From a virus: a stretch of 64,000 nt of DNA. The stretch is from UHGV virus genome UHGV-1375844, one strand, 5' to 3'. Below, one piece after another: positions 2,226-61,202 of the stretch; within the stretch, counting starts at the first letter, position 1; every line of letters begins with the position of its first letter. Position numbers and translations under genes: made by a program. The notes under the pieces were generated by a model that was not told the DNA's origin, made no database searches, and worked only from the letters and a program-made list of their open reading frames with translations.

Positions 2226-2243
2226 TAGAATTTCCTTGTTTTT

Positions 2244-2339: not shown

Positions 2340-2561
2340 TTAGTTCGTTCTGACTGCTAAGGAGCCGCAGCCGGTATTGATGAGTGTGAAGCGCTTATCA
2401 CAAAGTTCGAAGGTAAAGGCGGTGGCGTCACCCATATCGAGGGAAATCTGTTTTGCTGGAAGGTCGGCTAGGATTGCCGCCACCTTTTCCTCGTGCAAAG
2501 AGAAAATATGGCCAACTTCAAGTTTGTTCAAATTACAGGCTATTTTTTCCATTTCATTCAT
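2340..2561 (-). CDS. Hypothetical small protein (73 aa)
   Basis: ORF track; divergent from the HTH gene across an AT-rich intergenic region (2562-2814); followed by a 10-bp-stem hairpin at 2281-2313. Confidence 0.35.
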   Translation of the reverse strand: MNEMEKIACNLNKLEVGHIFSLHEEKVAAILADLPAKQISLDMGDATAFTFELCDKRFTLINTGCGSLAVRTN

Positions 2562-2814
2562 CCAACTACAACGGTTTCTAAACGTTTCTGAATACTACTA
2601 CCTATTGTATCAATAAGGAATATTTTCATATCAGATGTTTCTGCTTGCGTGACAATGAAAATGCAAATCATTATTCGCTTAAGTCTTGCCCTGTCTGGGA
2701 TTTAAGAGCATAATGTGCCGCCAACAAATGATAGATAAGTCTTTACAACCCTGACCTTTGATGTAATATCAGTAAGCACTTACCAGAGACAAATAAAACA
2801 CGCAGGGTTTAATC

Positions 2815-3195
2815 ATGGCTACCAATGAAACAAAACAAGGTCGCTACGCCGCCTATATCGACTCTCTCATCACCATTTCTCCAAAAAGTCAGGCCACTAT
2901 TGCTAAGGAAATTGGGTACAAAAACCCCAATAATCTATCGCTTATCAAAAGTGGCAAAATTCCTCTGCCGGTGGACAAGGTTCGCCCGTTGGCCAACTCT
3001 TTGGATGCTGATCCAGTACGTCTCATGCTCATGGTTCTCGAAGAGCGTCACCCTGAGCTTCTTGAGTTCTTCCGTGATGAAGGCACAGCTCCGCTTTCCC
3101 AAGACGAAAAACAGGTATTGGATGCTTTTCGTAAGCGTTTCGATGGTCAACAAGGTGCTTCAGAACAGGTCGTCGAGGCCATCAAGTCAATGTGA
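2815..3195 (+). CDS. Putative HTH transcriptional regulator (candidate lysogeny-switch protein)
   Basis: N-terminal segment SQATIAKEIGYKNPNNLSLIKSGK resembles an XRE-type helix-turn-helix; divergent promoter region with 2340..2561; convergent with and adjacent to the integrase; variant of the intergenic palindrome (agtaagcacttac, 2771-2783) upstream. Confidence 0.5.
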   Translation: MATNETKQGRYAAYIDSLITISPKSQATIAKEIGYKNPNNLSLIKSGKIPLPVDKVRPLANSLDADPVRLMLMVLEERHPELLEFFRDEGTAPLSQDEKQVLDAFRKRFDGQQGASEQVVEAIKSM

Positions 3196-4293: not shown

Positions 4294-4559
4294 AGTCCAA
4301 TCACTTAGTTAGCCGTAACACTGTATGTATAAACAGTATATTAGGCATTGTTTCTTATGGGATCAAGCCTAACGTTACAGTGATTTTACCAATGATTCCA
4401 TACTTAATAGGTATGGAATCATTAGAGGGCATTTTTTTGAATTTTTACCAGTATTTGGGGGGAGAGATTATGGAAACAGTGACCAGTTGCAGAAACGATT
4501 AAAAAAGAGTGGCTAAGCGCGGTAAGCCCAAACCGAATGAAGAGTTACCGCGCGAAATT

Positions 4560-7066: not shown

Positions 7067-7205
7067 TTATCGTGGCTTTGTGCTAGGTTAAAACAGCTTT
7101 GGGGAGCTGGTGCGCTTAAGGCCTTCCAGAAAACTCAAACTAGCTGAAATAGTAGGGTCAATTAGGTATCATTCCTTTTCAAATTTAACCAAAGACTCTT
7201 ATAAA

Positions 7206-8438
7206 ATGCCTGCTTTGTTAATTCTCATAATTGGGACATTGATGATTATTTTCTGGGATGTGATTAAGGAAAACGTAGAGGTTATAGGTACGCTTGCCAC
7301 TTCACTTGCCTTTTTTGCTACTGCCTGGGCTGCTTACGAGGCAAGGCATAGTGCAAAGGCGGCAATGAAGGCGACCCAGCTGACGGCTGATTCACTTCTT
7401 GAAATGAAAAAAGCCTCTTTTAAGGAGTGGTACGGCATTTTACTTGAACAGCATAATAAATTACTTGAGGATGTTAATAAGACCTTATTGGATGACAATG
7501 AACTTAATACCAGGTTGAATATTAATGTCATAAGAGGTATTTATTATCACGTAACCAAAAATCCTGCTTACATTAAGTATATTAATCACATAATTTTAAT
7601 CCTGAATTATGTAGATAAAGACTTTTATCTGCCGTCCTCGGCGGAAAATGAAAAGAGATCTTATATAGAACAGTTGCGCAACAGCATTAGCCCAAAAGTA
7701 AGCCTGCTGATTGCTATTTTTGGCCTTAATATCGACAATAATAAAACTTATGATGCAAAGAAACTTTACAACCTTCTAAGCAAATATAACTTTTTTGAAA
7801 ATGAGCTATTTTTTGAAGTTGCAATATCAAAAGTTCATTACTTAGACACTTATGTCGCCGAGATATTTGACAAAGAATACCGAAAAGACGTTGAATTTTA
7901 TGTTGATGAAACGGTTTGTGGTCGTGCGCTCTCTTTTATCAATACGACATGCCGACACCATAGGATTACTTTCGCAGTTCAGTGGTCTTACAACAACCCC
8001 TGCCAAAAGCATTTGCTGAAAAGATTCAATGACCTACCTATGCACATGAGAAACGTCATTGGGCTGAACATGGAAAAAGCAGCCGAGAAAGTGGCTACGT
8101 TTAATTCTGAGTTGCCTGGTTTTGTCGGCTGGGAAATTAAGATTGCTAATAATAAGGTGAGAGTAATTAAGGATGAAAAAGAACTGAAAAGGCTAATAAA
8201 GCTTTACTATAAATACCCCTTTGACCCTCGACAAACTGGTATCGTGTTAACCAATGGTTTCACCAATAGATTCGCCGATGAGATTAGGAATAGTATGTCT
8301 AGCTATGCTTTACATAAAGCCTATCTAGAACTCAGCTCTAATCCGAACAAAGATCAGGTAATTGATGAGATTGTGTCAGAGGTTGAAAAAATGGTCGATA
8401 AATTTAAAACAGAACTTAATTCTTTCTGCTTTAACTGA
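7206..8438 (+). CDS. Hypothetical membrane-anchored protein, AT-rich moron
   Basis: Only plus-strand gene in a minus-strand block; markedly AT-rich, K/N/I/Y-rich; N-terminal hydrophobic helix (PALLILIIGTLMIIFW); own terminator; ORF track begins at GTG 7110, first ATG at 7206, no clear SD. Confidence 0.55.
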   Translation: MPALLILIIGTLMIIFWDVIKENVEVIGTLATSLAFFATAWAAYEARHSAKAAMKATQLTADSLLEMKKASFKEWYGILLEQHNKLLEDVNKTLLDDNELNTRLNINVIRGIYYHVTKNPAYIKYINHIILILNYVDKDFYLPSSAENEKRSYIEQLRNSISPKVSLLIAIFGLNIDNNKTYDAKKLYNLLSKYNFFENELFFEVAISKVHYLDTYVAEIFDKEYRKDVEFYVDETVCGRALSFINTTCRHHRITFAVQWSYNNPCQKHLLKRFNDLPMHMRNVIGLNMEKAAEKVATFNSELPGFVGWEIKIANNKVRVIKDEKELKRLIKLYYKYPFDPRQTGIVLTNGFTNRFADEIRNSMSSYALHKAYLELSSNPNKDQVIDEIVSEVEKMVDKFKTELNSFCFN

Positions 8439-9275: not shown

Positions 9276-9362
9276 TGGCGGAAGGTAATGGAATCGAACC
9301 ATCACCGCGCTCGCAGTGGGACGGTTTTCAAGACCGCTTGAGCACCATGCTCCCTACCTTCC
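9276..9362 (-). tRNA. tRNA-Ser: tRNA-Ser (anticodon UGA), class II with long variable arm
   Basis: Reverse complement gives GGAAGGT...GGTCTTGAAAACCG...GGTTCGATTCC...ACCTTCCGCCA; 7-bp acceptor stem, encoded CCA, anticodon loop CTTGAAA. Confidence 0.7.
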
Positions 9363-9739: not shown

Positions 9740-9814
9740 TGGCGATGATGGGTGGATTCGAACCACCGACCAGTTGATTAACAGTCAACCGCTCTACCAC
9801 TGAGCTACACCATC
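9740..9814 (-). tRNA. tRNA-Asn: tRNA-Asn (anticodon GUU)
   Basis: Reverse complement GATGGTGTAGCTCAGTGGTAGAGCGGTTGACTGTTAATCAACTGGTCGGTGGTTCGAATCCACCCATCATCGCCA folds as a canonical cloverleaf; anticodon loop CTGTTAA. Confidence 0.8.
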
Positions 9815-17720: not shown

Positions 17721-18131
17721 CTATTTTTCGATAACTCTTTGTTCAACTTCTTGCATCTGCTTTTCAGTGAGACTAGAAATGTGTTGATTCAGCAACAGAT
17801 TGCGGTAGAAACTTTTTTGAGCCTCCGATAAATCCTGTCGCTTATCAATGTTTCTCAAAGCATTGCCGTAACTCTCGCTGATCGCATCACCATTGAATGC
17901 CTCAATAATGGTTTTCACATTCATAGCCAAGACGCCAAAGATAAAACAACCAGTGTTGTATACCCAGTCTACAACAAACCCTTTGGCGTACAAGAAAGGG
18001 GTTAAAATGTGAAGAATAACCCAAAGCAAAGCGCCAATTATTATTCCAAAAGCAGTTCTAAGCGGATAGCCCAAAAACAGAATATCTATTGCCCGATTTA
18101 AATTCCGACTAAAGAAATCATGATCTGGCAT
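17721..18131 (-). CDS. Hypothetical membrane protein (136 aa), AT-rich
   Basis: Two predicted TM helices; last gene of the ParA operon; start overlaps upstream gene. Confidence 0.5.
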   Translation of the reverse strand: MPDHDFFSRNLNRAIDILFLGYPLRTAFGIIIGALLWVILHILTPFLYAKGFVVDWVYNTGCFIFGVLAMNVKTIIEAFNGDAISESYGNALRNIDKRQDLSEAQKSFYRNLLLNQHISSLTEKQMQEVEQRVIEK

Positions 18132-18762
18132 CTAAAACCCCCTTTCCCAATTCTTCCCCTGGAATTTCTTCCGAGGCAGGGGTATTAAATATTTTACGCC
18201 TTCTGCCGCTTCCACCATCATCGATCTTGTCGATATTATTTTCGATGAACTTTAAAAGCTGTATAGCCTCTGTACTATTGTTGCCGTAAAACCCTTTGGA
18301 AATACGATATGTCAGAACGCGCTCTTTCAGCTCAAGTAAAACAAAGACAACAATCCCGATAATAGTTACAATGGGGCTAAAGCCCCAAAAGTAACCCATT
18401 GAAGCACCAAGAAAAATCATCAGCACCGATAAAAACTTAACCTTAAGGAAGGTTTTTTTCTCATATAAAAGATAAAGCTCGGAAATAGTTTTCCTTTTCA
18501 AAAACTCTTGCTCTTTCTTTAAATTGTCCTCATGTTTTGCTTTTATCTCTTGTAATTTTATTCTGTACTCTTCTGATTTTATATAACTCAATGTATTACG
18601 ATACAAGAAACTACATACCATACCTATCATTGAGCCAATAACAGAAATGACACCTTGGTTTGAAATTCCCAACAACCCCATAACCTTTCCAAAGATCACG
18701 GCGGCTATAATGGCTAACATTAGACCTACGAACCATCCGAAATGTCTATTCAGGAATTTCAT
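18118..18762 (-). CDS. Hypothetical multi-pass membrane protein (214 aa), AT-rich
   Basis: Several hydrophobic helices; K/E-rich coiled segment; composition clearly more AT-rich than flanking genes. Confidence 0.5.
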   Translation of the reverse strand: MKFLNRHFGWFVGLMLAIIAAVIFGKVMGLLGISNQGVISVIGSMIGMVCSFLYRNTLSYIKSEEYRIKLQEIKAKHEDNLKKEQEFLKRKTISELYLLYEKKTFLKVKFLSVLMIFLGASMGYFWGFSPIVTIIGIVVFVLLELKERVLTYRISKGFYGNNSTEAIQLLKFIENNIDKIDDGGSGRRRKIFNTPASEEIPGEELGKGVLDARS

Positions 18763-52064: not shown

Positions 52065-52964
52065 TTATGCCGGTAAAGCAATTTCAAGTGGTTTATCCAA
52101 AGGCTGTTTGTCGAACGCCAGCAGCGGCAGAGTTTCTGGCAACGAGCGACCAAAATCCGGGTTGCGGTACACCCCATATAACGGTGAGGTGAAGCTCAGG
52201 TTATGAATATCTTTGAGTAGCTTCACGATGCTGGCTTCATCCACCAGGCTGTCGGCAATATCCTGAATGGTAGTGCCTCGGTTACGCCCGGCTTTGGCCA
52301 GTGAACTGTTCTTGTGGTAGTCGGCAACCAGATCACGCAGCGCACGACGACGGCGAGATTCGCTCATGGCGAACAGCTCTTTGACGATCGCTTCGTTGTC
52401 GCCAGGGTCGGAACGAAAATGACGCTGGAAGACGCGCAGCGCACTCTCATAGCTCTTCGGACGCTCCGGACGGATGAACTGGAACCCTGCTTTCATGGCG
52501 AACGGGTTGTATTTGCTCATCGATGACTGGATCTCGATGATTGGCCGGTCATGCATCCTGCTAACCAGGTTAATCATTCGATAGGAGACGCCGACACCGC
52601 GATACTGCGTATCCACTACAGAACGGCTGATCACTGCAAAGTTATTGTTCACGTACCGGCCCCAATACTGGTTGGCCACAGTGGTATTGGTCGTTGGCTT
52701 CAGCTTAGGAAACATGCGATGGCGAGGTGCCAGTAGAAGTTTCGGATAGGCCATGACCACGACGCCCACCAGCCGGCCGTCCAGCTCGCAGCGATAATAC
52801 GTGGGCGCGAACGGTTTACCGTCCGTCTTGTAGTGCAGCGACTTCAGCGCGTGCCAGTCTTCAACAGTGCCTTTGGATACGGTCATTCGTTCCAGAAAGT
52901 CCAGATGCCGCGGGAACTCTTCCGGACGGTAGCGTTTGATGATGATGTCTGCCATGTCGATCAC
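52065..52964 (-). CDS. GNAT-fold acyltransferase-like protein (299 aa)
   Basis: VVDTQYRGVGVSYRMINLV matches GNAT motif A (R-x-x-G-x-G/S); SKYNPFAMKAGFQF matches motif B. Confidence 0.5.
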   Translation of the reverse strand: MIDMADIIIKRYRPEEFPRHLDFLERMTVSKGTVEDWHALKSLHYKTDGKPFAPTYYRCELDGRLVGVVVMAYPKLLLAPRHRMFPKLKPTTNTTVANQYWGRYVNNNFAVISRSVVDTQYRGVGVSYRMINLVSRMHDRPIIEIQSSMSKYNPFAMKAGFQFIRPERPKSYESALRVFQRHFRSDPGDNEAIVKELFAMSESRRRRALRDLVADYHKNSSLAKAGRNRGTTIQDIADSLVDEASIVKLLKDIHNLSFTSPLYGVYRNPDFGRSLPETLPLLAFDKQPLDKPLEIALPA

Positions 52965-53215
52965 CTGCGCTCGATATTGGCATTAATGAAATCCAGGCGA
53001 AGAGATTCCATCGCTCCCACCATGACATACGGGCGCCCGCCGTTATGCCAGCAATCAAGAACACTGCCGTCATTGTTGATCATCAGCAGCGCCAGGCTCT
53101 GGCTTTTGCCTTCTCTGGCGTACTGAAGTGCTTCTTCCAGCAGGCGGATGACTTCAACGTTATTGTTGTCAGCCTCTTTCGATGGCTTCAGCTCTACGAT
53201 CTTCAAATCAGGCAT
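52961..53215 (-). CDS. Hypothetical protein (84 aa)
   Basis: ORF track; start/stop overlaps with both neighbours. Confidence 0.4.
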   Translation of the reverse strand: MPDLKIVELKPSKEADNNNVEVIRLLEEALQYAREGKSQSLALLMINNDGSVLDCWHNGGRPYVMVGAMESLRLDFINANIERR

Positions 53216-53846
53216 ATTCCACCTTCACGCGTTCTTTGTAGTGCTTGGTGATCTGCATATCCGGCCGCAGGGCGTTCTTCAGATCTTCGTGTGTCGTCGC
53301 CACCATTACCGTCGCGCCAACCTTACGAGCGGCACGCTGGAGGTTCGACGCAACAACCTGAGCGGTTACACGGTCGAGTACGGCACCAAATTCGTCGGCC
53401 GCCCACACTTTCGCGCCGGACTCGATTAGCTTGGCGATTTTGAGACGGTATTTCTGGCCGTCAGACATTTCGGATGGCTTGCGCACAAAGAGATAGGCGT
53501 CATTCAATCCGGCCATAGACAACAGCCCCAGCGCTTCGCTGGTGGTTTTGCCCAGCTGGTCGATGACGTTAACCTCATTGTCGAAAGCAAAATCATCGAT
53601 TGAGGCCACAGAAAGACCTTCATCCTTCATCTGGCGTTGCAGCTCGCGCAGCACAACGGATTTGCCTGAACCGGATTGTCCGGTGATGTACACAACATCA
53701 CCCTGCTTCACTTCCAGCTCCAGATTGTCGTAAAGCGTCCACTCTTTTTCGTCCAGACCAAGACCGAACGATTCGGCAATTTCCAGCGTTCGCGTGGTTT
53801 TGTTCACGCGGGTCTGGAACGACACGTTGATGGTGTACTTACTCAT
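53208..53846 (-). CDS. ABC-type ATPase (stand-alone nucleotide-binding domain, 212 aa)
   Basis: Walker A GQSGSGKS, signature-like MSDGQKYR, Walker B VWAADEFGA, H-loop-like VATTHEDL. Confidence 0.65.
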   Translation of the reverse strand: MSKYTINVSFQTRVNKTTRTLEIAESFGLGLDEKEWTLYDNLELEVKQGDVVYITGQSGSGKSVVLRELQRQMKDEGLSVASIDDFAFDNEVNVIDQLGKTTSEALGLLSMAGLNDAYLFVRKPSEMSDGQKYRLKIAKLIESGAKVWAADEFGAVLDRVTAQVVASNLQRAARKVGATVMVATTHEDLKNALRPDMQITKHYKERVKVEYA

Positions 53847-54511
53847 GCAGCCAGCTCCCCGGAGGACACTTTCTCCGCATACGCCACGAAAGCGTTCACC
53901 CCGCGCTCTCCCGTGATTTCTTCCATGTGGGCGAGCAAATCCCCAACCACAATGGCAGAGCCAGCAGGAAGCGTTTTAAAGCCCAATACGTCGATGACAC
54001 GGACTTCTTCAGCGGCCACTTCGCGACTGATCTCGGTGTGCTCTTCTTTCTGGCGTTCCGTCTCTTCGCCCAGATCGAGCACCAGAGAGCCGGTTTCCAT
54101 CTCTTCGGTCATGCTGCCGACAAGCACATTCAGTTCACGCTCTTCAAAACCGAAGACCTCGACGTCGCCCAGCACCAGGGATTCCAGTTCCTGCTGCAAT
54201 TTGATGGCGTCGTAATCGATACTGGCAAGGCGGTTGTCTTCCAGACGCTTCGCCTTCACCTCTTCTTCATTCAGATCGTCGCGAACAATGACCGGCACAC
54301 GCTCCAGACCAGCCAGAAGCGCCGCCTCGCGACGACCATGACCAGTAATGATGACGCCGTTCTTGTCGATCGTGATCGGCTGGTCAAAACCGCGCTTTTT
54401 GATGGCGGCAGCCAGATCGCGGATCTGCTGTTCATCATGTTTTTTGGCGTTCATCTCATACGGGATGAGTTCAGCCGGGTTTCGATAGACGATTTCAAAG
54501 TTCTTGGTCAT
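53843..54511 (-). CDS. ParB/Srx-like N-terminal domain protein 2
   Basis: Start at ATG 54511 overlapping the upstream stop (TAATG); GVIITGHGRREAALLAG resembles the ParB arginine-patch motif; acidic C-terminus. Confidence 0.6.
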   Translation of the reverse strand: MTKNFEIVYRNPAELIPYEMNAKKHDEQQIRDLAAAIKKRGFDQPITIDKNGVIITGHGRREAALLAGLERVPVIVRDDLNEEEVKAKRLEDNRLASIDYDAIKLQQELESLVLGDVEVFGFEERELNVLVGSMTEEMETGSLVLDLGEETERQKEEHTEISREVAAEEVRVIDVLGFKTLPAGSAIVVGDLLAHMEEITGERGVNAFVAYAEKVSSGELAA

Positions 54512-55209
54512 TACATACGCTCCTTGTAGTAGTCGACCAGCCACACCAGGGCTTCCCCGGCGTTCTCCATTTCGTTACCGGTGTTGATCCCCTGCTCTTT
54601 GATGATGGTTTTGATGGTGTCGGCGACGCGATCTGACGCATCAAACGTCACTTTGAAGCGCATCGTCTGGTGTTCTGCGCCAACACGCTCCGTTTTCTCG
54701 CGGCGATCGTCGTCAGCTGGCTCATCATCGCCGCGGGAAAGCGCTTCCAGCGCTTCGAGATCAATGGCAGAGGCTTTGGCAAGGGTGGCCGCCATTTCAT
54801 CGTCATAGGGGGCAATATCGGAAAGCCGGTAGTCGATTTCAGACTGGATTTCTTCGATCAGTCGCTGCAAAGCGATCTGATCGTCTTCGCCGTAACGTTC
54901 GTTATCGACAAGTGACATCTGCTTGGCCACCAGGTCGTTGATTTTGCCAACCGAGATGACAGGAACAGTCGAAATTCCCTGCTCTATCGCAGCCCGCCAG
55001 CGATGTTCGCCGCCGAGGATCTGGAAAGTGCCACCGTCCAGCTCACGGGCCAAAATTGGCTTAAAAAAGCCCAGCTTCTCGATAGAACCTTTCAGTTTTT
55101 CGAAGTTTTGCGCCCCCACCGAGTTGGTGTTCCAGGGATTCGGACACAGTTTCGCAACTTCAACCTGCAAAATCGTAATTTTCACATCCATTTTCTTGAT
55201 ACAATCCAT
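54511..55209 (-). CDS. ParB/Srx-like N-terminal domain protein 1
   Basis: FQILGGEHRWRAAIEQG ParB-box-like motif; acidic C-terminus; palindrome copy immediately upstream of the ATG in place of a classical SD. Confidence 0.6.
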   Translation of the reverse strand: MDCIKKMDVKITILQVEVAKLCPNPWNTNSVGAQNFEKLKGSIEKLGFFKPILARELDGGTFQILGGEHRWRAAIEQGISTVPVISVGKINDLVAKQMSLVDNERYGEDDQIALQRLIEEIQSEIDYRLSDIAPYDDEMAATLAKASAIDLEALEALSRGDDEPADDDRREKTERVGAEHQTMRFKVTFDASDRVADTIKTIIKEQGINTGNEMENAGEALVWLVDYYKERM

Positions 55210-55212
55210 TGT

Positions 55213-55229
55213 ATAAGTACTTACTTATT
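55213..55229. repeat. Intergenic palindrome family, copy, in the divergent region between the ParB operon and the helicase
   Basis: tataagtacttacttat. Confidence 0.6.
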
Positions 55230-55273
55230 ATAATAGCCAATTAACACACAAAAGGCACGAAGGAAAGAGGTTT

Positions 55274-56833
55274 ATGACAGTTCGTATTGTATCGAATGCC
55301 GTCAATGCACTTATTTCGGGTGCAGATGACAATGTAAAAAGGCTCGTTCAGGAAATGTTGAGCTACGAAGTAGAGGCTGGTGACTGGAAAGGCACCAGCA
55401 CGATGTTCAACTGGAGCAAAAATGCGTTCCCGGCCGGCTTCGCCAAGCCAGTGGCAGCCAACCTTCTCAAAGCGGGCATCAAATGCGTCCACGTTCGTAA
55501 GGATAAAGCGACGCCGCTTGGCAAGCCTAATCCAGTCGTTAATCCGTTTCCGTACAACCCAGACTATGCCTATCAAGATCAGACTGTCGAAACGCTCGTT
55601 CGCGAGGGGATGATGATCGCGCAAATTGCGACAGGGGGCGGGAAGTCTAACGTAGCGTGTAAAGCAGCAGCACGTATTGGGCGAATGACGTTGTTTTTAA
55701 CCACGCGTTCTGTTTTGATGTTCCAGATGGCTGAAAATTTCCAAAAATCTATCGATTATCGAGCTGAAAACGGAGAACCGTGGCTTAAAGGCCAGAAGGT
55801 GGGCGTAATAGGATCTGGTCAGTGTCAGGTTTCACGCCATATCAACGTCGCAACGGTGCAAACCCTGGCCAGCTTCCTTGAAGAACCGCCACGCGATGCT
55901 TCACCGGAAAAGAGGAATCACCACCTTAGACGTCAGGGGCTTGTTAAGCGGTTCCTTTCCAGCGTTTCCCTCCTGATTCTGGAAGAAGCCCACGAATCAT
56001 CAGGCTCCAATTTCTACGATATAGCGCGGTTATGCATTAATGCTGATTATCGACTGGCTCTGACAGCTACACCGTTCATGAAGGATTCGACGGAAGCGAA
56101 CATGCGTCTCATGGCAGTGGCCGGGCGAATTGAGATCAAAGTCACCGAAAAATACTTGATCGACCGAGGTATTTTAGCAAAGCCCTACTTTCTTTATCAT
56201 AAGATCTCGTACACTCCGGATGAGGTACGAATCCGGGCCGAACTAGCTTCAAAACATCTCAATTTCAGGGTCGGAATGAGCACTGCGTATCAGAAAGCCT
56301 ATCAATTAGGTATTGTCTACAATCTGGCTCGCAACGAAGCCATTGTGCGTGAGGCGCTCATGTACAAAAGCCACGGCCTGAACTGTATGACACTGGTGCG
56401 TCTGAAAAGGCATGGACAGATCCTGATGGAAATGATGAGAGAGAGCGGCCTTAACGTCGACTTTATCTATGGGGAGTCAAATCAGTCTACCCGGCAAGCC
56501 AAACTGAGCAGCTTAGCGGCAGGCAAGATAGACGTTTTGATTGGCTCAACCATACTGGATGTAGGCGTCGACGTTCCTAGCGTCGGGGCGGTAATTCTGG
56601 GTGGTGGAGGAAAGGCCGAAGTTGAAATGCGTCAGCGCGTAGGACGTGGCCTTCGAGCCAAAAAAAATCAGGCGAATGTGTGTTTTGTTACCGACTTCAT
56701 CGATGTGAGCAACAAATATCTCATGTCGCACTCATATGAACGGAAAAACATCATCGACACTACGCCTGGGTTTGCCGAGGGCGTATTGCCAGTGGGTAGC
56801 ACCTTCGATTTTACTGTTTTAAATAGAGAGTAA
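55274..56833 (+). CDS. Superfamily 2 helicase (DEAH-like)
   Basis: Motif I ATGGGKSN, motif II LILEEAHES, motif VI QRVGRGLR; AAGGAAAGAGG RBS; 519 aa. Confidence 0.75.
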   Translation: MTVRIVSNAVNALISGADDNVKRLVQEMLSYEVEAGDWKGTSTMFNWSKNAFPAGFAKPVAANLLKAGIKCVHVRKDKATPLGKPNPVVNPFPYNPDYAYQDQTVETLVREGMMIAQIATGGGKSNVACKAAARIGRMTLFLTTRSVLMFQMAENFQKSIDYRAENGEPWLKGQKVGVIGSGQCQVSRHINVATVQTLASFLEEPPRDASPEKRNHHLRRQGLVKRFLSSVSLLILEEAHESSGSNFYDIARLCINADYRLALTATPFMKDSTEANMRLMAVAGRIEIKVTEKYLIDRGILAKPYFLYHKISYTPDEVRIRAELASKHLNFRVGMSTAYQKAYQLGIVYNLARNEAIVREALMYKSHGLNCMTLVRLKRHGQILMEMMRESGLNVDFIYGESNQSTRQAKLSSLAAGKIDVLIGSTILDVGVDVPSVGAVILGGGGKAEVEMRQRVGRGLRAKKNQANVCFVTDFIDVSNKYLMSHSYERKNIIDTTPGFAEGVLPVGSTFDFTVLNRE

Positions 56834-56835
56834 TA

Positions 56836-57114
56836 ATGAGCGATAAACGCGCTATACATTGCCAGGTGCAACTGACCGAGAAGGCCAACGACAAGCTGGA
56901 AAACTTTCAAAATCGTCTTCGTGAACGCAACATTAAGTTGTCAAAGGCAGACATCATCAATCTGGTGCTGGCCAACATGACAGTTGCCGATTTTGATAAG
57001 GCAGCGACATCTCTGGAGGCGTCAGCGAAAGCTCGTGAAAAAGTCATGAAAATTTACGAGAACTCGGGGATGACCAAAGAAGATTTGGCCGATATTCTAA
57101 AACGTCTCGACTGA
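56836..57114 (+). CDS. Hypothetical small protein (92 aa)
   Basis: ORF track; followed by terminator hairpin atggcgcc-ttta-ggcgccat + GTTTT (57121-57145). Confidence 0.45.
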   Translation: MSDKRAIHCQVQLTEKANDKLENFQNRLRERNIKLSKADIINLVLANMTVADFDKAATSLEASAKAREKVMKIYENSGMTKEDLADILKRLD

Positions 57115-57120
57115 ATCAAG

Positions 57121-57145
57121 ATGGCGCCTTTAGGCGCCATGTTTT
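57121..57145 (+). terminator. Rho-independent terminator
   Basis: Perfect 8-bp stem, 4-nt loop, T-rich tail. Confidence 0.6.
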
Positions 57146-57176
57146 AATGAACTGATAAGGACTTTGTTCAGGTACG

Positions 57177-57599
57177 ATGAAATACGTAATAATTCCACTA
57201 ATCACCACCTCTGCTTTACTTCTTTCCGCATGTCAGTCCCGTCCTGTTTCTGTTTCTGATGCAAAACCCGCGCCGCAGGCCAGAGTATTCAAATATCAGA
57301 CTCCAGAAGCCTCCACCCTGGTGGTCTTACGTGATAAAGGCATGGTCGGCTCTGGATGTGACGCTTCCATCTTCATCAATGGGGAAACCGTCGCAAAACT
57401 GGAGACAGGTGAAAAAGCCACTTTCCATCTTGCAGCTGGAGAATGGATCGTCGGAGCCTCGCTTGAAGGTTCCGGACTGTGCGCACTTAACCCGGCACGA
57501 CAGGAGCGTGAAACAATTACCAAAGCCGGTGACACGAAAGTGTTCAGGGTGTTTACCAGCAATGCTGGTGACATAGATATTCTTCCAACGACGCTGTAA
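57177..57599 (+). CDS. Lipoprotein (140 aa)
   Basis: Signal peptide and lipobox (IIPLITTSALLLSAC). Confidence 0.55.
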   Translation: MKYVIIPLITTSALLLSACQSRPVSVSDAKPAPQARVFKYQTPEASTLVVLRDKGMVGSGCDASIFINGETVAKLETGEKATFHLAAGEWIVGASLEGSGLCALNPARQERETITKAGDTKVFRVFTSNAGDIDILPTTL

Positions 57600-57603
57600 T
57601 GAC

Positions 57604-58131
57604 ATGACGAACATAACTGACATCACCTACGGTATACCTGCAGAAGTCTGGCCGCGGGATTATTCTAACGTCGAGAAGGCACTCATGTTCTGGCGTAAAT
57701 CCCTCATTCCTGTAAGGGTCACGATGGAGGATGGTCAGGTGTTCTGCATGTATGTGCAGGGTCTCATGTCATCCCGCAATAAGGTTGATCTTTGCTCTGC
57801 CCCGTTCGACAAAGAAAATCGTATAAGGCTCCCACTTGAGCGGATCAGCACGATTGAGTCGGGTGTGACAGAAAGTATTGGACACGACTTCAAGGGGCGA
57901 ATCACGATTAACCCCGAATATGTTGATAATCGGCCATCTCGCCGGGACTTCTTCAAAATCTGTCGGCAGGCTCATGCGTCTCAGAAGTCTATAAGGGTGT
58001 ACATGGCGGATGGCCGTGAAATTGAAGGTGTGTCATTAGGCGTTGACGCTTGCCAGGTCACGATCGGCATTGGTGAAGGTCGCAAGATGGTGGTCTTGTT
58101 CGATTGGGTCGAAAGGATTATACCGTTTTAA
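57604..58131 (+). CDS. Hypothetical protein (175 aa)
   Basis: ORF track; 4 nt after the lipoprotein gene. Confidence 0.45.
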   Translation: MTNITDITYGIPAEVWPRDYSNVEKALMFWRKSLIPVRVTMEDGQVFCMYVQGLMSSRNKVDLCSAPFDKENRIRLPLERISTIESGVTESIGHDFKGRITINPEYVDNRPSRRDFFKICRQAHASQKSIRVYMADGREIEGVSLGVDACQVTIGIGEGRKMVVLFDWVERIIPF

Positions 58132-58452
58132 ATCTATAAGGGTAATAACCGGCTAAGTCCGGTTATTATTTTATGGGTCACTTCTTCACTATATATTCCT
58201 TACAGCCAATTCCCGCCAATAATATATAAGGGCAATCTCACAATTGCGTTATTTATTTAGGGAACACCTTCAAGAAAAACGGATTTATTTCTAAGACTTT
58301 GATTTTTATTGAATAAAATTTTTTCCTGCTACCTTACAAAAAATACTTGCTTTTAAAATTCATATAGCGATAATTACACACATCGAAAGCGAACACGCTA
58401 ACGATAAATAAAAAACAAATTAATTTTCAATATTACATAAGGATTAAATATT

Positions 58453-59100
58453 ATGTCTAACGTTATCTCTAAAAAAGCTATCATCGACGCTGCTGTAGTT
58501 ATCACTGAAGAGCTTCAGATCAAAGCAAATGAAGCAAGCCAGACACGCGAACAACGCGCTAAAAATGGAACTGCTACCAAAGCAGATAAAGCTAACGAGC
58601 TTGCAGCCACTACTAAACTTGCATACTTCACTAACAACGTATTAAACGCGCTTAAAGATGAAAAATTAGCTGGTGTCTTTTACTACGCGATTAAAGCCAG
58701 CAAGCAAGATCCAGAAGTATTTTTCCGTGAAGCGATGACTAATAGCTACTCTCTCGAAAAGCTGGTTTATCTGGTGAAGTCTATTAAGTCTGGCAAATGT
58801 GTTTATTCAGTCGCTGATATGTCAGGATCTCGCGTATTCGCATTAATCGAAATGATTAATGATGAAATGGAAACTTTTACTAATGGCGCTGTATTCGATT
58901 TAATGAATGAAGCTAAAAAAGCATGTGAGATTAAATTAGACGCTGGCTACACTCAAGCCAATCAGCTTATCAATTTGTGTGAACGTCTGGGACTGGTCGA
59001 GAAGATCAAAGGAATGGGCGCTGCTAAAAACGGATCTCAGCAATATCGCTTTATCAAGAATGATTTTTATAACTATCTGGCTGAAGCGTTCAAAGCGTAA
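58453..59100 (+). CDS. Hypothetical protein (215 aa), AT-rich moron-like gene
   Basis: Preceded by a ~300-bp very AT-rich promoter-like region (58140-58450); followed by a strong terminator. Confidence 0.5.
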   Translation: MSNVISKKAIIDAAVVITEELQIKANEASQTREQRAKNGTATKADKANELAATTKLAYFTNNVLNALKDEKLAGVFYYAIKASKQDPEVFFREAMTNSYSLEKLVYLVKSIKSGKCVYSVADMSGSRVFALIEMINDEMETFTNGAVFDLMNEAKKACEIKLDAGYTQANQLINLCERLGLVEKIKGMGAAKNGSQQYRFIKNDFYNYLAEAFKA

Positions 59101-59112
59101 TTAGATGGATAT

Positions 59113-59138
59113 AGCGCCCACTATGGGCGCTAGTTTTA
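59113..59138 (+). terminator. Rho-independent terminator (agcgccca-ctat-gggcgct + T-run)
   Basis: Hairpin followed by agtttt. Confidence 0.6.
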
Positions 59139-59150
59139 AGGATAAAAATC

Positions 59151-59354
59151 ATGACAAGCTATGACCAGATCCTCGCGGAGTATCGCGCAAAATATCGCGC
59201 TTATAAACTTGAATTAATCGACGATCTAAAAGCGCAACGCGATAAACTAAATTTTACTTTTGCTGATTTGCTTAACAGTAAAAGAGACTGTAAACGCAAG
59301 CGTGAATATTTGCGCTTGTCTGAAATGATCGGAAAACTGCAAAACAGCATTTAA
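59151..59354 (+). CDS. Hypothetical small basic protein (67 aa)
   Basis: ORF track; AGGA RBS; flanked by two near-identical terminator hairpins. Confidence 0.45.
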   Translation: MTSYDQILAEYRAKYRAYKLELIDDLKAQRDKLNFTFADLLNSKRDCKRKREYLRLSEMIGKLQNSI

Positions 59355-59356
59355 AC

Positions 59357-59430
59357 AAAAGCGCCCACTATGGGCGCTTTTTTCGTTTCAGGATCTCCAC
59401 CATAACGCGCCAACAATGGCGCGTTTTCTT
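59357..59430 (+). terminator. Tandem rho-independent terminators
   Basis: aaagcgccca-ctat-gggcgcttttttcg (59357-59382) and aacgcgcc-aacaat-ggcgcgttttctttt (59404-59430). Confidence 0.65.
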
Positions 59431-59859
59431 TTGTCTGGCGTTCACTCATTCACAACAAAAATAAGCTCCATAAAAACGCCACTGCGACGCGTTTTAACGT
59501 GTGGCAATACGTACCCATAGCTAAAACAAAAAAGCGCTCAGAATGCGAGGTGTGGCGTTTTAGTGTATGGCTTATTTTATGCTGTCGTGGGCGTGATCGT
59601 CTGGCGTTATCTGGCGACGTGATCCGCGCCATCCTTCGGGACGTGTCGGCAATAATGGCGTGATCCGTGGGCGCTCGCGTATAGTCTCCACGTTGGCGCA
59701 ACGTGTACGCGCTTACAGTCTCGTTTATTCAGTGATTCATAATCACATAGCGAAAGCTATCCGGATGGCTCAGGGGCTGAAAAGCCCACCAGCACCACCC
59801 CAGCGCCTCTGTGCATTTTCTGGTGTGATTCTGAGCGTCTCCCGCTCGGTTTCTACATA

Positions 59860-59990
59860 GAGGCAAACCCAGCCGTTTCCCGAAAATTCCCTGGCCGTTT
59901 CCCTACGGCTGCCCGAATCGCTCTCTGGCCGTTCCTGAAGTTTTCCCCTGCGGCAGCGGGCGTCCAAAAAGAAAGGGCCGTTTCCAGCCC
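59860..59990. repeat. Iteron-like array 1 (GCCGTTTCC motif, 4 copies)
   Basis: cagccgtttccc, ggccgtttccct, ggccgttcctg (variant), gggccgtttccag at irregular 25-40-bp spacing. Confidence 0.55.
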
Positions 59991-59998
59991 CTCCCCTC

Positions 59999-60481
59999 TC
60001 ACACGCCAGGCAGGATATGAATGCGGTTGCTGACATACATCTCTTTCACGAAGTCCCCGCATGTGACTTTCCATTCACTGACACCGGCTTCATAAACCAC
60101 GTTTTTGCATTTAAGTGCATTGTCAGCGATACGCACACCCTGCGCTGTTGCTTCCTGGTCGGTGAAGTCGAACCCGGATTCAGTTTTGACCCACACGGCA
60201 ATTTGTGTTGCCAGCTCGATGAGTTTTGACTGGCAGAAGCGACCGCGTCGTACCGGGAAGATAAATACCCCGAACCCCGCGGTGGTAACGTAGGCTTTTT
60301 CGAATACGCGTTTATGTCGACGGTTACAGATAATGTTGCTGGCGATCTGCTGCTTCTCTTTCCCTGACAACTCAATGGTCTCATTGCCACGCCAGGCGCC
60401 CAGCACGCTTTTTTCAATGTCAGAGTAAGTCACGGAGATCGTGCCATGCTCGGGAGTGTTCACAGTAGCGATATAGTTCAT
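59999..60481 (-). CDS. Hypothetical early protein (160 aa)
   Basis: ORF track; own promoter-proximal motif upstream. Confidence 0.5.
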   Translation of the reverse strand: MNYIATVNTPEHGTISVTYSDIEKSVLGAWRGNETIELSGKEKQQIASNIICNRRHKRVFEKAYVTTAGFGVFIFPVRRGRFCQSKLIELATQIAVWVKTESGFDFTDQEATAQGVRIADNALKCKNVVYEAGVSEWKVTCGDFVKEMYVSNRIHILPGV

Positions 60482-60493
60482 CGAGATAATCCT

Positions 60494-60517
60494 TTAAACA
60501 ATTTGTTTTCTTGATGG
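60494..60517 (-). promoter_or_regulatory. Conserved promoter-proximal near-palindrome, copy 6
   Basis: ttaaacaatttgttttcttgatgg; on the minus strand follows GATAAT (-10-like) with a TTGGAC -35-like box 16 nt upstream. Confidence 0.5.
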
Positions 60518-60704
60518 TTTAATTATCGCTACGCGTATCAGGCGTCCAAGCGCTCTATTCCGGCATCTGTTTGCCTGAAGGGAGTCAGAGGGTCGTTCGG
60601 TAGCCTGGCGGTAAGAGGTGGGTGTTTTGCCTGATGTGATGAGGTTGGTATATCTGGCGGGCAAGCGGTGCTATCTTGGCCGCAGGTAACTCAGGAGACT
60701 CAAG

Positions 60705-60893
60705 ATGTTAGATAAACTGGATAATCTGCAATTAAGCGAAGAAGAGGCAACGGCTCTGGCCCAGCTCGTCAAACGACTCACCTGGACTGATATGCGAGGC
60801 TGTGCCGTTGACGATGATGAGGCGTATACCATCAGTGATGCGGTCGCCAAATTGCAGAAGAGTCTCGCTGAAGCAGGCTTCGCTCCGCGATAG
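60705..60893 (+). CDS. Hypothetical small protein (62 aa)
   Basis: ORF track; AGGAG RBS. Confidence 0.35.
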   Translation: MLDKLDNLQLSEEEATALAQLVKRLTWTDMRGCAVDDDEAYTISDAVAKLQKSLAEAGFAPR

Positions 60894-60920
60894 GCCACCA
60901 GCAAGGGTGGCCCCGTTCTC

Positions 60921-61202
60921 TTAGTGGAGCAGACCGACGTCGATGGTGTCGCCGGAGTCTGTGATGCGGATCATCAGCATGGCGAAGGCATTTAACGGAT
61001 AGCCTGCGTGCCACTCCGGGAAACGATCGTCTCGCATGAAATCGGCAATGTCATACACGCTGTCCTGAAAACGGAAGAAGCGGGTGGCGCTCTGCTCGTC
61101 GTATTCAACATGATCCATCTCCTGCTGTTCTGCCGGCGACAGGTCCAGCCAGGACTCCAGGTAAACATTTTCAGCTTTAGGGGTAATTGTAAAATCGGTC
61201 AT
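60921..61202 (-). CDS. Hypothetical early acidic protein (93 aa)
   Basis: ORF track; own promoter-proximal motif. Confidence 0.45.
   Translation of the reverse strand: MTDFTITPKAENVYLESWLDLSPAEQQEMDHVEYDEQSATRFFRFQDSVYDIADFMRDDRFPEWHAGYPLNAFAMLMIRITDSGDTIDVGLLH

What the first reader, a model, noticed from the sequence alone, without database searches (positions are those of the whole stretch)
57121..59430. Plus-strand AT-rich module (lipoprotein and three unknowns) insulated by three near-identical terminator hairpins
Four plus-strand genes run against the prevailing orientation: a lipoprotein, a 175-aa protein, a 215-aa protein behind a 300-bp very AT-rich promoter-like region, and a 67-aa basic protein. 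The last two are each followed by hairpins built on the same gcgcccactatgggcgc core, and a third terminator follows. The insulation and composition suggest an independently regulated accessory module, possibly lysogenic conversion or exclusion.
Basis: partly seen in the sequence, partly recalled or inferred. Interest (0 to 1): 0.5.

Follow-up and report, generated by a model that had tools for sequence, protein, structure and literature searches.

The report
FljA-like regulator in phage-plasmid core
This stretch of a Salmonella SSU5-type phage-plasmid is mostly conserved core, not an accessory island: it holds a flagellin-repressor-like RNA-binding protein and a gene that is silent in a related lysogen, and only the lipoprotein and the last small gene are swappable.

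Summary
Four + strand genes, a 321-bp region of 29% GC and two identical 19-nt hairpins plus a third terminator lie where stated.

The window is an SSU5/pHCM2/pMT1-type phage-plasmid, 99.5% identical to a Salmonella plasmid. The "unknown" 175-aa protein is a full-length FljA-family member (PF03614, E 2.7e-89). Its model shows two Sm/Hfq-like barrels.

FljA-like and the 215-aa gene sit in about 95% of roughly 825 related plasmids. These include plasmids of Klebsiella pneumoniae and Yersinia pestis, which from general knowledge lack working flagella. Order is conserved and dN/dS is about 0.1, so both are core genes. The lipoprotein (about half) and the 67-aa gene (about 60%) are variable; the 67-aa gene is a cassette bounded by copies of the hairpin.

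Published RNA-seq of the related E. coli lysogen Cyrano shows the 215-aa homologue silent and FljA-like tracking the helicase. The 215-aa gene has an invariant sigma70-like promoter and codon usage like the capsid gene, with a weak winged-helix match.

An unexplained, sense-strand-only RTAAGG array spans the FljA-like gene and the control region.

The accessory/lysogenic-conversion reading is only partly supported. Interest is moderate.

The parts
55274..56833 (+). DEAD/DEAH (UvsW-like) helicase; first gene of the + strand block (context, outside the finding)
   Evidence: Pfam DEAD, ResIII and Helicase_C. It diverges from two ParB-like genes across a 64-bp gap. About 825 plasmid records match at 60% identity or more.
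56836..57114 (+). 92-aa protein of unknown function; its start codon lies 3 nt after the helicase stop
   Evidence: phrog_1466. The Cyrano homologue CYRAN_117 is 12-fold above prophage background in the lysogen.
57121..57140 (+). Hairpin T0 (ATGGCGCC-TTTA-GGCGCCAT) with a weak U-run; probable leaky terminator
   Evidence: -16.1 kcal/mol, z -4.3. The stem is kept through changed sequence in pFra and L121.
57177..57599 (+). Lipoprotein gene in a variable slot (lipobox LLSA|C; Gln at +2)
   Evidence: phrog_890, with a weak DUF2846 match. Found in 418 plasmid records, only 52 of them Klebsiella. Other lineages carry other genes in this slot, often lipoproteins.
57604..58131 (+). FljA-family protein (Flag1_repress); two tandem Sm/Hfq-like barrels behind a conserved disordered N-terminal peptide. 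Its start codon lies 4 nt after the lipoprotein stop
58143..58173 (+). Terminator T1: stem TAATAACCGG/CCGGTTATTA, loop CTAAGT, then UUUUAU
   Evidence: -15.3 kcal/mol, z -3.7. Nearly invariant across 81 distinct sequences, and the stem is re-made with other bases in pL3995-2. It is the only consensus structure RNAalifold finds in the gap.
58132..58452 (+). 321-bp control region of 29% GC. Contents: TATAAGGG at 58135 and 58225; ATTTATTTAGGGAACACCTTC at 58251-58271; TTATTTCTAAGACTTTGA at 58285-58302; an A-tract; -35 TTGCTT at 58347-58352; -10 GATAAT at 58369-58374; a leader of about 70 nt
   Evidence: Alignments of 6 and of 81 distinct sequences. These motifs occur nowhere else in the 106-kb plasmid.
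58453..59100 (+). 215-aa protein: N-terminal long helical hairpin and a possible C-terminal winged helix; AT-rich but rich in optimal codons
   Evidence: phrog_1513, with no Pfam, NCBIfam or PDB match. Only 21 representatives among 1.84e9 proteins. AF2 pLDDT 84.5. Foldseek gives weak winged-helix hits. Fop 0.60. The Cyrano homologue is silent in the lysogen.
59113..59131 (+). Hairpin T2, AGCGCCCACTATGGGCGCT, with only a U4 tail, 19 nt before the next start codon; intercistronic attenuator and cassette boundary
   Evidence: Conserved across lineages.
59151..59354 (+). 67-aa basic protein; optional cassette gene with no room for a promoter of its own
   Evidence: phrog_6145. pI 9.5. Found in 517 plasmid records, none from Yersinia. 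Replaced by, or stacked with, a 75-aa gene in other lineages.
59360..59384 (+). Terminator T3: the same 19-nt hairpin followed by UUUUUU
   Evidence: z -5.2. Invariant in 6 lineages.
59404..59433 (+). Terminator T4: AACGCGCC-AACA-ATGGCGCGTT followed by UUUCUUUU
   Evidence: The loop differs and the stem is conserved across lineages.

Best explanation
The finding is the downstream half of the single rightward gene block in the early/replication region of an SSU5/pHCM2/pMT1-type phage-plasmid. It contains three different things.

1. Tail of the helicase operon. The order is helicase, 92-aa gene, leaky hairpin T0, a swappable slot (here a lipoprotein), the FljA-family gene, then the strong terminator T1.
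- Shown: the FljA-like protein is a full-length family member, and its model shows two Sm/Hfq-like barrels.
- Inferred from the family: it binds RNA and represses post-transcriptionally.
- Inferred from comparison: because it is kept under purifying selection in plasmids of hosts I take to be non-flagellate (general knowledge), its main target is probably a phage-plasmid transcript rather than host flagellin mRNA.
- Best guess for the target: transcripts carrying the sense-strand RUAAGG elements, that is its own mRNA and the neighbouring 215-aa gene's leader.

2. A self-contained gene for a 215-aa protein with a possible winged helix.
- Shown: an invariant sigma70-like promoter inside a 321-bp AT-rich control region whose motifs are unique in the plasmid.
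- Shown in a relative: the gene is transcriptionally silent in the plasmid-prophage state.
- Inferred from capsid-like codon usage: it is made in large amounts once switched on, most likely during lytic development or just after entry.

3. An optional small-gene cassette. The 67-aa gene is read through the U-poor hairpin T2 and is bounded by a second copy of that hairpin (T3). T3 and T4 together end the unit.
For: Identity and core status:
- 99.5% identical to pSA20094620.2 and 85% to phage SSU5.
- PLSDB record counts: helicase about 825 at 60% identity or more, FljA-like 831, 215-aa 815, lipoprotein 418, 67-aa 517.
- Fixed gene order in 88 loci, including a lineage at 37% FljA-like identity.
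- dN/dS 0.03-0.13 for all genes.
- In the phage collection, full-length FljA-like genes occur only in SSU5-like phages.

FljA-like:
- PF03614 at 297.9 bits against a cut-off of 24.
- 37% identity to chromosomal FljA, which sits directly after a flagellin gene in L196.
- Tandem Sm-like fold.
- Family function as a blocker of fliC mRNA translation, as summarised in PMC2652032.

Transcription units:
- Gene spacing of 3 nt and 4 nt.
- Hairpin energies.
- Conservation of T1 and the promoter blocks in 81 distinct sequences.
- Only 19 nt between T2 and the 67-aa ATG.

Expression, from PMC9928086 S1 Table, for the Cyrano homologues:
- 215-aa (CYRAN_113): 5.9, and small gene (CYRAN_112): 5.0. The floor is 4.99 and the background implied by Table 1 is about 9.8.
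- FljA-like (CYRAN_114): 18 in overnight LB and log2 7-8 in four other conditions, tracking the helicase (CYRAN_118).

215-aa protein: Fop 0.60 with GC3 0.35; weak winged-helix matches.

Cassette: loci carry one hairpin and no small gene, or two hairpins flanking the 67-aa gene, a 75-aa gene, or both.

RTAAGG array.
Against: - There are no transcript data for this element itself. The RNA-seq comes from an E. coli relative whose variable slot differs (an opposite-strand gene precedes its FljA-like gene). It is gene-level only and does not sample induced cells.
- No RNA target of the FljA-like protein is shown.
- RNAalifold finds no conserved structure in the 215-aa leader. Covariation in a small leader hairpin is limited to a few clades, and some sequences break a pair.
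- Floor-level mRNA of the 215-aa homologue points to transcriptional silencing. A translational repressor alone would not explain it.
- FljA-like alleles recombine independently of the 215-aa gene. That weakens the idea of a co-evolving pair.
Confidence: 0.55

Rival explanations
1. The FljA-like protein is a true flagellin repressor. When expressed from the phage-plasmid it blocks translation of host fliC mRNA. This would be lysogenic conversion or host takeover: loss of flagella could protect against flagellum-dependent phages or innate immune detection, or save resources.
For: - Full-length PF03614 match.
- The N-terminal motif ITYGxxAEVWPRDY and about 29 other positions are invariant between plasmid and chromosomal members.
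- The closest full-length plasmid relative is from Salmonella, whose fliC leader is the known FljA target type.
- The Cyrano homologue is expressed in lysogens at log2 7-8.
- SSU5 and pHCM2 annotators named it a flagellin repressor.
Against: - Intact copies occur in 341 Klebsiella and 62 Yersinia pestis plasmid records. From general knowledge, K. pneumoniae lacks flagella and Y. pestis is non-motile. Several diverged Klebsiella-type alleles show dN/dS of about 0.08.
- No flagellin gene accompanies it, unlike canonical fljB-fljA.
- In LF82, flagellin mRNA reaches log2 11.7 while the FljA-like gene is expressed. This is mRNA only.
- From general knowledge, S. Typhi CT18 carries pHCM2 and still types as H:d.
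Confidence: 0.2
2. The AT-rich 215-aa/67-aa segment is a horizontally acquired accessory island (a moron) silenced by H-NS, giving lysogens an exclusion or conversion phenotype under some condition.
For: - 29-40% GC against about 50% for the element.
- Own promoter and terminators.
- Silent in standard conditions.
- The invariant TCGATAATT at the -10 resembles the H-NS nucleation motif TCGATAAATT. This is recalled from the literature and was not tested.
- The 67-aa gene is variable.
Against: - The 215-aa gene is in 815 records, against about 825 with the helicase, and always in the same place.
- Purifying selection.
- Fop is 5th of 52 genes, unlike the low-Fop AT-rich genes elsewhere in the window.
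- The control region is conserved block by block across lineages at 50-62% protein identity.
- Its expression in the lysogen matches structural genes, not morons.
Confidence: 0.12
3. The RTAAGG/TATAAGG repeats and the other invariant blocks are DNA sites (iteron-like operators) for the winged-helix 215-aa protein or another plasmid-encoded DNA-binding regulator. On this view they are not RNA elements, and the FljA-like protein has nothing to do with the neighbouring gene.
For: - The blocks are conserved as sequence, not as structure.
- TATAAGG persists upstream of the 215-aa gene in lineages where the FljA-like gene lies 2 kb away.
- Floor-level mRNA implies control of transcription.
- The 215-aa protein has a possible winged helix.
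Against: - The strict sense-strand bias extends into the FljA-like coding region, where the motif is built from tandem rare codons.
- Nothing tested here separates DNA recognition from RNA recognition.
Confidence: 0.25

Closest known systems
FljA, repressor of phase-1 flagellin (Salmonella fljBA operon; Pfam PF03614)
   Same: Full-length homologue of the same size (175 against 176-179 aa). About 37% identity to chromosomal members, with the same invariant N-terminal motif and two-repeat layout. By homology it should bind RNA.
   Different: It is not linked to a flagellin gene or an invertible promoter. It lies in the helicase operon of a phage-plasmid and is conserved in plasmids of hosts I take to be non-flagellate. 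Its target is therefore probably different and is unknown.
Hfq / Sm-like and WYL small beta-barrel nucleic-acid-binding domains
   Different: Two barrels sit in one chain, with sequence identity of only 10-17%. There is no evidence for a hexameric ring, and no Sm1/Sm2 motif was tested.
Phage morons (Hendrix-type gene plus promoter plus terminator inserts)
   Same: The lipoprotein and the 67-aa gene are present or absent among close relatives and lie next to hairpins.
   Different: The 67-aa gene has no room for a promoter. The 215-aa and FljA-like genes are not variable. The 215-aa homologue is not expressed in a lysogen.
PeSL-type mobile regulatory cassettes of T4-type phages (repeated promoter/stem-loop units flanking small ORFs). 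This comparison is recalled from the literature (Arbiol et al. 2010) and was not checked here
   Same: An identical stem-loop recurs at the boundaries of alternative small ORFs. Loci hold 0, 1 or 2 such ORFs, with 1, 2 or 3 hairpin copies.
   Different: No promoter element accompanies the hairpin. There is one site per genome rather than many.
SSU5 / pHCM2 / pMT1 (pFra) / Cyrano phage-plasmids
   Same: Same gene order and 85-99.5% DNA identity. The region corresponds to SSU5_119-123 and CYRAN_112-117.
   Different: Only allelic differences and the content of the two variable slots.

Membership tests
FljA / Flag1_repress (PF03614) | Sequence matches the family profile above the curated cut-off over its full length | tested here: met
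   297.9 bits against a cut-off of 24, E 2.7e-89, residues 6-172 on profile positions 1-170 of 170.
FljA / Flag1_repress (PF03614) | Encoded directly downstream of a second flagellin gene (fljB) in one operon | tested here: not met
   No flagellin gene lies in the + block; the neighbours are a helicase, the 92-aa gene and a lipoprotein. The canonical arrangement is seen in Atlantibacter locus L196, flagellin 2239-3909 then FljA 4001-4531.
FljA / Flag1_repress (PF03614) | Binds the 5' leader of fliC mRNA and blocks its translation | not testable with these tools
   The function is known for Salmonella and z66 FljA (PMC2652032). Indirect evidence against fliC as the sole target: conservation in Klebsiella and Y. 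pestis plasmids.
Sm/Hfq-like fold | N-terminal helix followed by a five-stranded bent beta-sheet barrel | tested here: met
Sm/Hfq-like fold | Ring oligomer with RNA-binding faces | not tested
   Only a monomer was modelled.
Phage moron | Variable presence among otherwise syntenic relatives | tested here: inconclusive
   Met for the lipoprotein (418 records) and the 67-aa gene (517), against about 825 for the helicase. Not met for FljA-like (831) or the 215-aa gene (815).
Phage moron | Expressed autonomously in the lysogen | tested here: not met
   For the 215-aa/67-aa unit, the Cyrano homologues CYRAN_113 and CYRAN_112 are at the floor in all five conditions of PMC9928086 S1 Table. This was not testable for the lipoprotein of this element.
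Intrinsic terminator | GC-rich stem-loop followed directly by a U-run | tested here: met
   T3 at 59357-59381 with UUUUUU, T4 at 59404-59425 and T0 at 57121-57140 were found by the scan. T1 folds at -15.3 kcal/mol and is followed by UUUUAU. T2 at 59113-59131 has only U4 and was not called by the scan.
Winged-helix DNA-binding proteins (215-aa protein) | Helix-turn-helix plus a beta-hairpin wing with a significant structural match | tested here: inconclusive
   The model has H144-157, H167-178, E182-184 and E197-200. Foldseek hits to Orc/Cdc6 WH, MukF, RTP and PadR have E 0.02-0.5, none at or below 0.001. No sequence match to Pfam or PDB.
SSU5-like phage-plasmid | DNA identity and gene order shared with SSU5, pHCM2 and pMT1 | tested here: met
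   85% identity over 99% of the query to SSU5, and 99.5% to pSA20094620.2 (IncFIB, non-mobilizable). Same order ParB-ParB | helicase-92aa-slot-FljA-like-215aa.

The most novel reading that the evidence does not exclude
FljA-family proteins may be, first of all, post-transcriptional regulators of phage-plasmids. On this reading they recognise sense-strand RUAAGG elements on their own operon and on the leader of the adjacent 215-aa gene. They would help keep that abundant winged-helix protein, a lytic-phase or entry-phase factor, off during plasmid-prophage maintenance. The flagellar phase-variation repressor of Salmonella would then be a domesticated copy picked up from such a mobile element. 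This fits two things: the canonical flagellin-fljA pair in Atlantibacter lies between phage tail-fibre-like and integrase genes, and Hin is related to phage invertases.
Probability: 0.15. Interest if true: 0.65.

Novelty: new variant of a known kind. Interest (0 to 1): 0.4.

Why it matters
SSU5-type phage-plasmids are very common in clinical Klebsiella, E. coli, Enterobacter and Salmonella, and they form the backbone of the Y. pestis pMT1/pFra plasmid. Their regulation is almost unstudied.

This work identifies three things that can be tested directly:
- A core FljA-like Sm-fold protein that probably has a non-flagellar RNA target.
- A neighbouring gene that is silent in a related lysogen yet built for high expression, with a control region whose motifs are unique in the plasmid.
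- A concrete candidate cis-element, RUAAGG.

It also corrects database labels. The 175-aa protein is annotated as 'transcriptional regulator' or 'repressor of phase-1 flagellin', and the 67-aa protein as 'CorA transporter'. If the FljA-like protein did repress flagellin in flagellated hosts, carrying these plasmids would alter motility, H-antigen typing and TLR5 signalling.

Tried and rejected
- Rfam scan of 55000-61000 at E up to 1 gave only sub-threshold hits (sraL 24.9 bits against 39, Phe leader, STnc350, MicX) overlapping the terminators. I rejected them.
- PADLOC, NCBIfam and PDB sequence searches gave nothing usable for any of the proteins.
- I looked for a conserved RNA structure in the 215-aa leader. 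A small hairpin, AUCG..AGCG-AACA-CGCU..CGAU, shows some compensatory changes (ATCG/CGAT to GTCG/CGAC; AGCG/CGCT to AGCA/TGCT). About 15 sequences break a pair, and RNAalifold predicts no consensus. I do not claim it.
- I compared the region with the Salmonella fliC leader obtained from genome loci. There is a resemblance: AAGGGU followed by a CGG-stem hairpin, an AACA-loop hairpin, and GAUAAGGA at the ribosome site. It is short, and the Atlantibacter fliC leader reads AUGGGUU. I keep it as a lead only.
- I tested whether the control-region blocks are operators of a global prophage repressor. No further copies exist in the other 42 kb of the plasmid or in the window. Any regulator is therefore local.
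- A sigma28-like reading of TTTCTAAGACTTT was rejected because no GCCGATAA lies at the right spacing.
- I checked for phage tRNAs that could decode the rare ATA and AGG codons. There are none.
- The primary FljA mechanism papers (Yamamoto & Kutsukake 2006; Aldridge 2006) are not in the held library.
- The genome-contig scan for flagellin starts returned fliC loci but no Salmonella fljBA locus. A canonical fljA locus was obtained instead through P0084.
Full report
**Observation**

The sequence holds the four + strand ORFs as described:
- 57177-57599, 140 aa, with signal peptide and lipobox LLSA|C.
- 57604-58131, 175 aa.
- 58453-59100, 215 aa.
- 59151-59354, 67 aa, pI 9.5.

The gap 58132-58452 is 321 bp at 29% GC.

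The core gcgcccactatgggcgc occurs exactly twice in 64 kb. It lies inside an identical 19-nt palindrome-like unit at 59113-59131 and 59360-59378. A third, different hairpin with a T-run follows at 59404-59425. All fold far better than shuffled controls.

A crude ORF call gives 63 minus-strand and 18 plus-strand ORFs, so the block does run against the prevailing orientation.

Three corrections apply:
- The block begins with the helicase (55274-56833) and a 92-aa gene whose start lies 3 nt after the helicase stop, not at 57121.
- Two more conserved hairpins exist: T0 at 57121-57140 and T1 at 58143-58168.
- The first twin hairpin (T2) has only a U4 tail and lies 19 nt before the 67-aa ATG. It cannot fully insulate that gene, which also has no room for a promoter.

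**What the element is**

The stretch is 99.5% identical to Salmonella plasmid pSA20094620.2 (IncFIB, non-mobilizable, 106.6 kb). It is 85% identical to phage SSU5 genes SSU5_119-123. 778 plasmid records match at the DNA level.

This is the SSU5/pHCM2/pMT1 phage-plasmid family. The rest of the window carries the structural genes on the minus strand.

**The four proteins**

The 175-aa protein is a full-length member of Pfam PF03614, 'Repressor of phase-1 flagellin' (FljA): E 2.7e-89, 297.9 bits against a cut-off of 24. It also matches phrog_1444.
- Its relatives come overwhelmingly from contigs of 100-112 kb. Chromosomal 'phase 1 flagellin repressor' proteins match at 37-41% identity.
- The alignment keeps an N-terminal motif, ITYGxxAEVWPRDY, and a repeated (V/I)R(V)xMxDG(R/Q) element. 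The DNA shows the same internal repeat at 57710-57734 and 57989-58013.
- The AlphaFold model (pLDDT 85) has a disordered N-terminus followed by two units of one helix plus five strands.
- FljA is known to prevent translation of fliC mRNA (summarised in PMC2652032). An RNA-binding role is therefore the reasonable inference.

The 215-aa protein has no Pfam, NCBIfam, PADLOC or PDB relative.
- It belongs to phrog_1513 (unknown function). It has only 21 representatives among 1.84 billion cluster representatives.
- Its model (pLDDT 84.5) has a long N-terminal helical hairpin, a helical middle, and a C-terminal helix-helix-beta-hairpin.

The lipoprotein is phrog_890, with a weak DUF2846 match.

The 67-aa protein is phrog_6145. 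The label 'MIT family metal ion transporter' is implausible for a hydrophilic basic protein of 67 aa.

**Core or accessory**

tblastn against 72,556 plasmids gave these record counts:

| Gene | Records | Notes |
|---|---|---|
| Helicase | about 825 at 60% identity or more | |
| FljA-like | 831 (821 near full length) | Klebsiella 341, Escherichia 229, Enterobacter 92, Yersinia 62, Salmonella 60 |
| 215-aa | 815 | |
| Lipoprotein | 418 | only 52 Klebsiella |
| 67-aa | 517 | no Yersinia, 15 Salmonella |

- Annotated regions from Y. pestis pFra, K. pneumoniae, K. oxytoca, E. coli, Cyrano and the distant pL3995-2 show one order: ParB-ParB (minus) | helicase, 92-aa, variable slot, FljA-like, AT-rich gap, 215-aa, optional small gene | a convergent 160-aa gene.
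- 80 IMG/VR loci fit the same order, apart from the L187-L191 lineage, where extra genes separate FljA-like from the 215-aa gene.
- Pairwise dN/dS is 0.03-0.13 for every gene. That includes FljA-like alleles compared within Klebsiella-type plasmids.
- In the phage collection, full-length FljA-like genes occur only in SSU5-like phages.

FljA-like and the 215-aa gene are therefore core genes. The lipoprotein slot and the small-gene slot are the variable parts.

**Transcription units**

T0 is conserved as a structure with changed stem bases, and its U-run is weak. The lipoprotein gene starts 36 nt after it, and the FljA-like gene starts 4 nt after the lipoprotein stop. These two genes are thus most likely read from upstream.

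T1 is nearly invariant in 81 distinct sequences. Its stem is rebuilt with other bases in pL3995-2. It is the only consensus structure RNAalifold finds in the gap.

Downstream of T1 the gap is conserved in blocks:
- TATAAGG(G/T) twice, 90 bp apart (58135 and 58225).
- ATTTATTTAGG(G/C)AACACCTTC.
- TTATTTCTA(A/G)GACTTT.
- An A-tract.
- CTTG(A/C)..., then 16 nt, then the nearly invariant CGATAAT. This gives -35 TTGCTT at 58347-58352 and -10 GATAAT at 58369-58374.

The simple promoter scan missed this promoter because the window's -35 matches only 3 of 6 positions.

None of these blocks recurs anywhere else in the 106-kb plasmid. Whatever reads them acts locally.

**Expression evidence from a relative**

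PMC9928086 re-analysed RNA-seq of E. coli LF82, a lysogen of the SSU5-like phage-plasmid Cyrano (OV696614). Mapping the locus tags gives these homologues:
- CYRAN_118: helicase.
- CYRAN_117: 92-aa.
- CYRAN_114: FljA-like.
- CYRAN_113: 215-aa.
- CYRAN_112: small gene.

In the paper's S1 Table, averaged normalised counts in overnight LB are:

| Homologue | Count |
|---|---|
| Helicase | 46.1 |
| 92-aa | 114.5 |
| FljA-like | 18.1 |
| 215-aa | 5.9 |
| Small gene | 4.99 |

The floor is 4.99. The background implied by the paper's Table 1 is about 9.8 (7084 divided by 723).

Across the other four conditions:
- FljA-like runs at log2 7-8 and follows the helicase.
- The 215-aa homologue stays at log2 2.8-3.9, rising to 5.5 at 6 h in macrophages, much like the terminase and capsid genes.

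The authors list CYRAN_117, but not 112-114, among lysogen-expressed morons.

The 215-aa unit therefore has a near-consensus promoter yet is silent in the plasmid-prophage state. Its codon usage (Fop 0.60, 5th of 52 genes, next to capsid and tail genes, despite the lowest GC3 at 0.35) predicts high expression when it is on. Other AT-rich ORFs in the window have low Fop (0.37-0.43).

**Hairpins as cassette boundaries**

Across 84 loci, the region after the 215-aa gene takes one of these forms:
- One copy of the 19-nt hairpin and no small gene (25 loci).
- Two copies flanking the 67-aa gene.
- Two copies flanking an unrelated 75-aa gene (MFVLIAGVNV...; this is the form seen in the Y. pestis pFra record examined and in many E. 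coli-type loci).
- Both genes, with a spacing of about 480 nt and sometimes three hairpin copies.

Each small gene thus travels with its own copy of the hairpin. It resembles stem-loop-bounded gene shuffling described for T4-type phages, a comparison from memory that was not tested.

**An unexplained array**

- ATAAGG occurs 15 times on the + strand of the window, and 8 of these lie in 56996-58437. None of the 16 minus-strand copies lies there. Seven copies in 1.3 kb was never reached in 20,000 random placements.
- Inside the FljA-like gene the copies are tandem rare codons (ATA-AGG at I74-R75 and I130-R131; GTA-AGG at V37-R38). They are retained in most of 61 distinct alleles although dS is 0.6 to above 2.
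- The chromosomal fljA of Atlantibacter also reads GTA AGG GTT at the equivalent site.
- The same + strand-only enrichment of RTAAGG holds in SSU5, pFra, Klebsiella, E. coli and pL3995-2 loci.
- The strand bias favours an RNA element, but direct-repeat DNA sites are not excluded.

**Mechanism and rivals**

My best reading (confidence 0.55) is this:
- FljA-like is an RNA-binding post-transcriptional regulator that serves the phage-plasmid itself.
- The 215-aa gene is a separately controlled gene, silent in the prophage state and highly expressed when on, for a probable DNA-binding protein.
- The lipoprotein and the small gene are swappable extras.

That FljA-like specifically controls the 215-aa gene is a guess, at roughly 0.25. 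Floor-level mRNA indicates that transcription is also shut off. That could be through the unique upstream blocks, or through H-NS on this AT-rich DNA; the -10 overlaps a TCGATAATT motif resembling the H-NS nucleation site, which I recall from the literature.

The flagellin-repressor rival gets 0.2:
- For it: the family assignment and the Salmonella host.
- Against it: conservation in plasmids of hosts I take to be aflagellate, the absence of a partner flagellin gene (compare L196), and abundant flagellin mRNA in LF82 while the gene is expressed (mRNA only).

The accessory-island reading gets 0.12 for the 215-aa unit.

**Novelty and score**

The locus is essentially identical to deposited plasmids, and the FljA label already exists in the SSU5 and pHCM2 annotations. 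The thing itself is not new.

As far as the held literature shows, these points are new (no paper pairs SSU5 or 'phage-plasmid' with fljA):
- An FljA-family, Sm-fold protein is a core gene of this very common phage-plasmid family, independent of host flagellation.
- It is linked to a gene that is silent in a related lysogen yet built for high expression, with a control region whose motifs are unique in the plasmid.
- The region carries a sense-strand RTAAGG array.

I rate it a new variant of a known kind, with interest 0.4.

Noticed in passing
window 59430-59998: A 570-bp ORF-free stretch lies between the + block and the convergent minus-strand gene 59999-60481. It is 78% identical on average over six lineages, with long invariant runs. 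It carries GCCGTTTCC(C/A) repeats at 59872, 59894 and 59977, plus GCCGTTCC near 59921. This could be an origin, a centromere or a non-coding RNA. There is no Rfam hit, and the RNAalifold covariation term is only -0.29.
   Followed up: partly
window 56996-58437 (+ strand): 8 of the 15 + strand ATAAGG copies in the 64-kb window cluster here, and none of the 16 minus-strand copies does. Inside the FljA-like gene they are conserved tandem rare codons (ATA-AGG). TATAAGGG occurs three times in the whole 106-kb plasmid, all within 57990-58232.
   Followed up: partly
L196 1-8531 (Atlantibacter chromosome): The canonical flagellin-fljA pair lies between a Peptidase_S74 tail-fibre-like gene and a phage-type integrase. 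The classical FljA may itself ride on a mobile element.
   Followed up: no
L004 vs L006 (Klebsiella plasmids); window 57604-59100: Mosaicism: the FljA-like alleles differ at saturated dS, while the adjacent 215-aa genes differ at dS 0.075. Across lineages the 215-aa gene has much lower dS (0.6-0.76) than the helicase (1.5 or more). There is a recombination breakpoint between the two genes, or extra constraint on the nucleotide sequence.
   Followed up: partly
window 59151-59354; L001 7427-7630: The 67-aa protein is annotated in SSU5 and PHROGs as 'MIT family metal ion transporter (CorA)'. It is hydrophilic (GRAVY -0.8), basic (pI 9.5) and far too short. The label looks like an annotation error.
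   Followed up: yes
window 9276-9362 and 9740-9814 (minus strand): Two tRNA genes, tRNA-Ser(tga) and tRNA-Asn(gtt). No others were found in the rest of the plasmid.
   Followed up: no
window 7110-8438 (+), 17721-18131 and 18118-18762 (-): AT-rich ORFs (GC 0.37-0.39) with the lowest share of optimal codons in the window (Fop 0.37-0.43). They look more like recent acquisitions than the 215-aa gene does.
   Followed up: no
window 53843-55209 (-) and 52065-53846 (-): Two tandem ParB-like genes, plus ORFs whose counterparts in related records are annotated as ABC-type ATPases, diverge from the helicase across a 64-bp gap. These are probable partition or early functions sharing a bidirectional promoter region with the helicase operon.
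   Followed up: no
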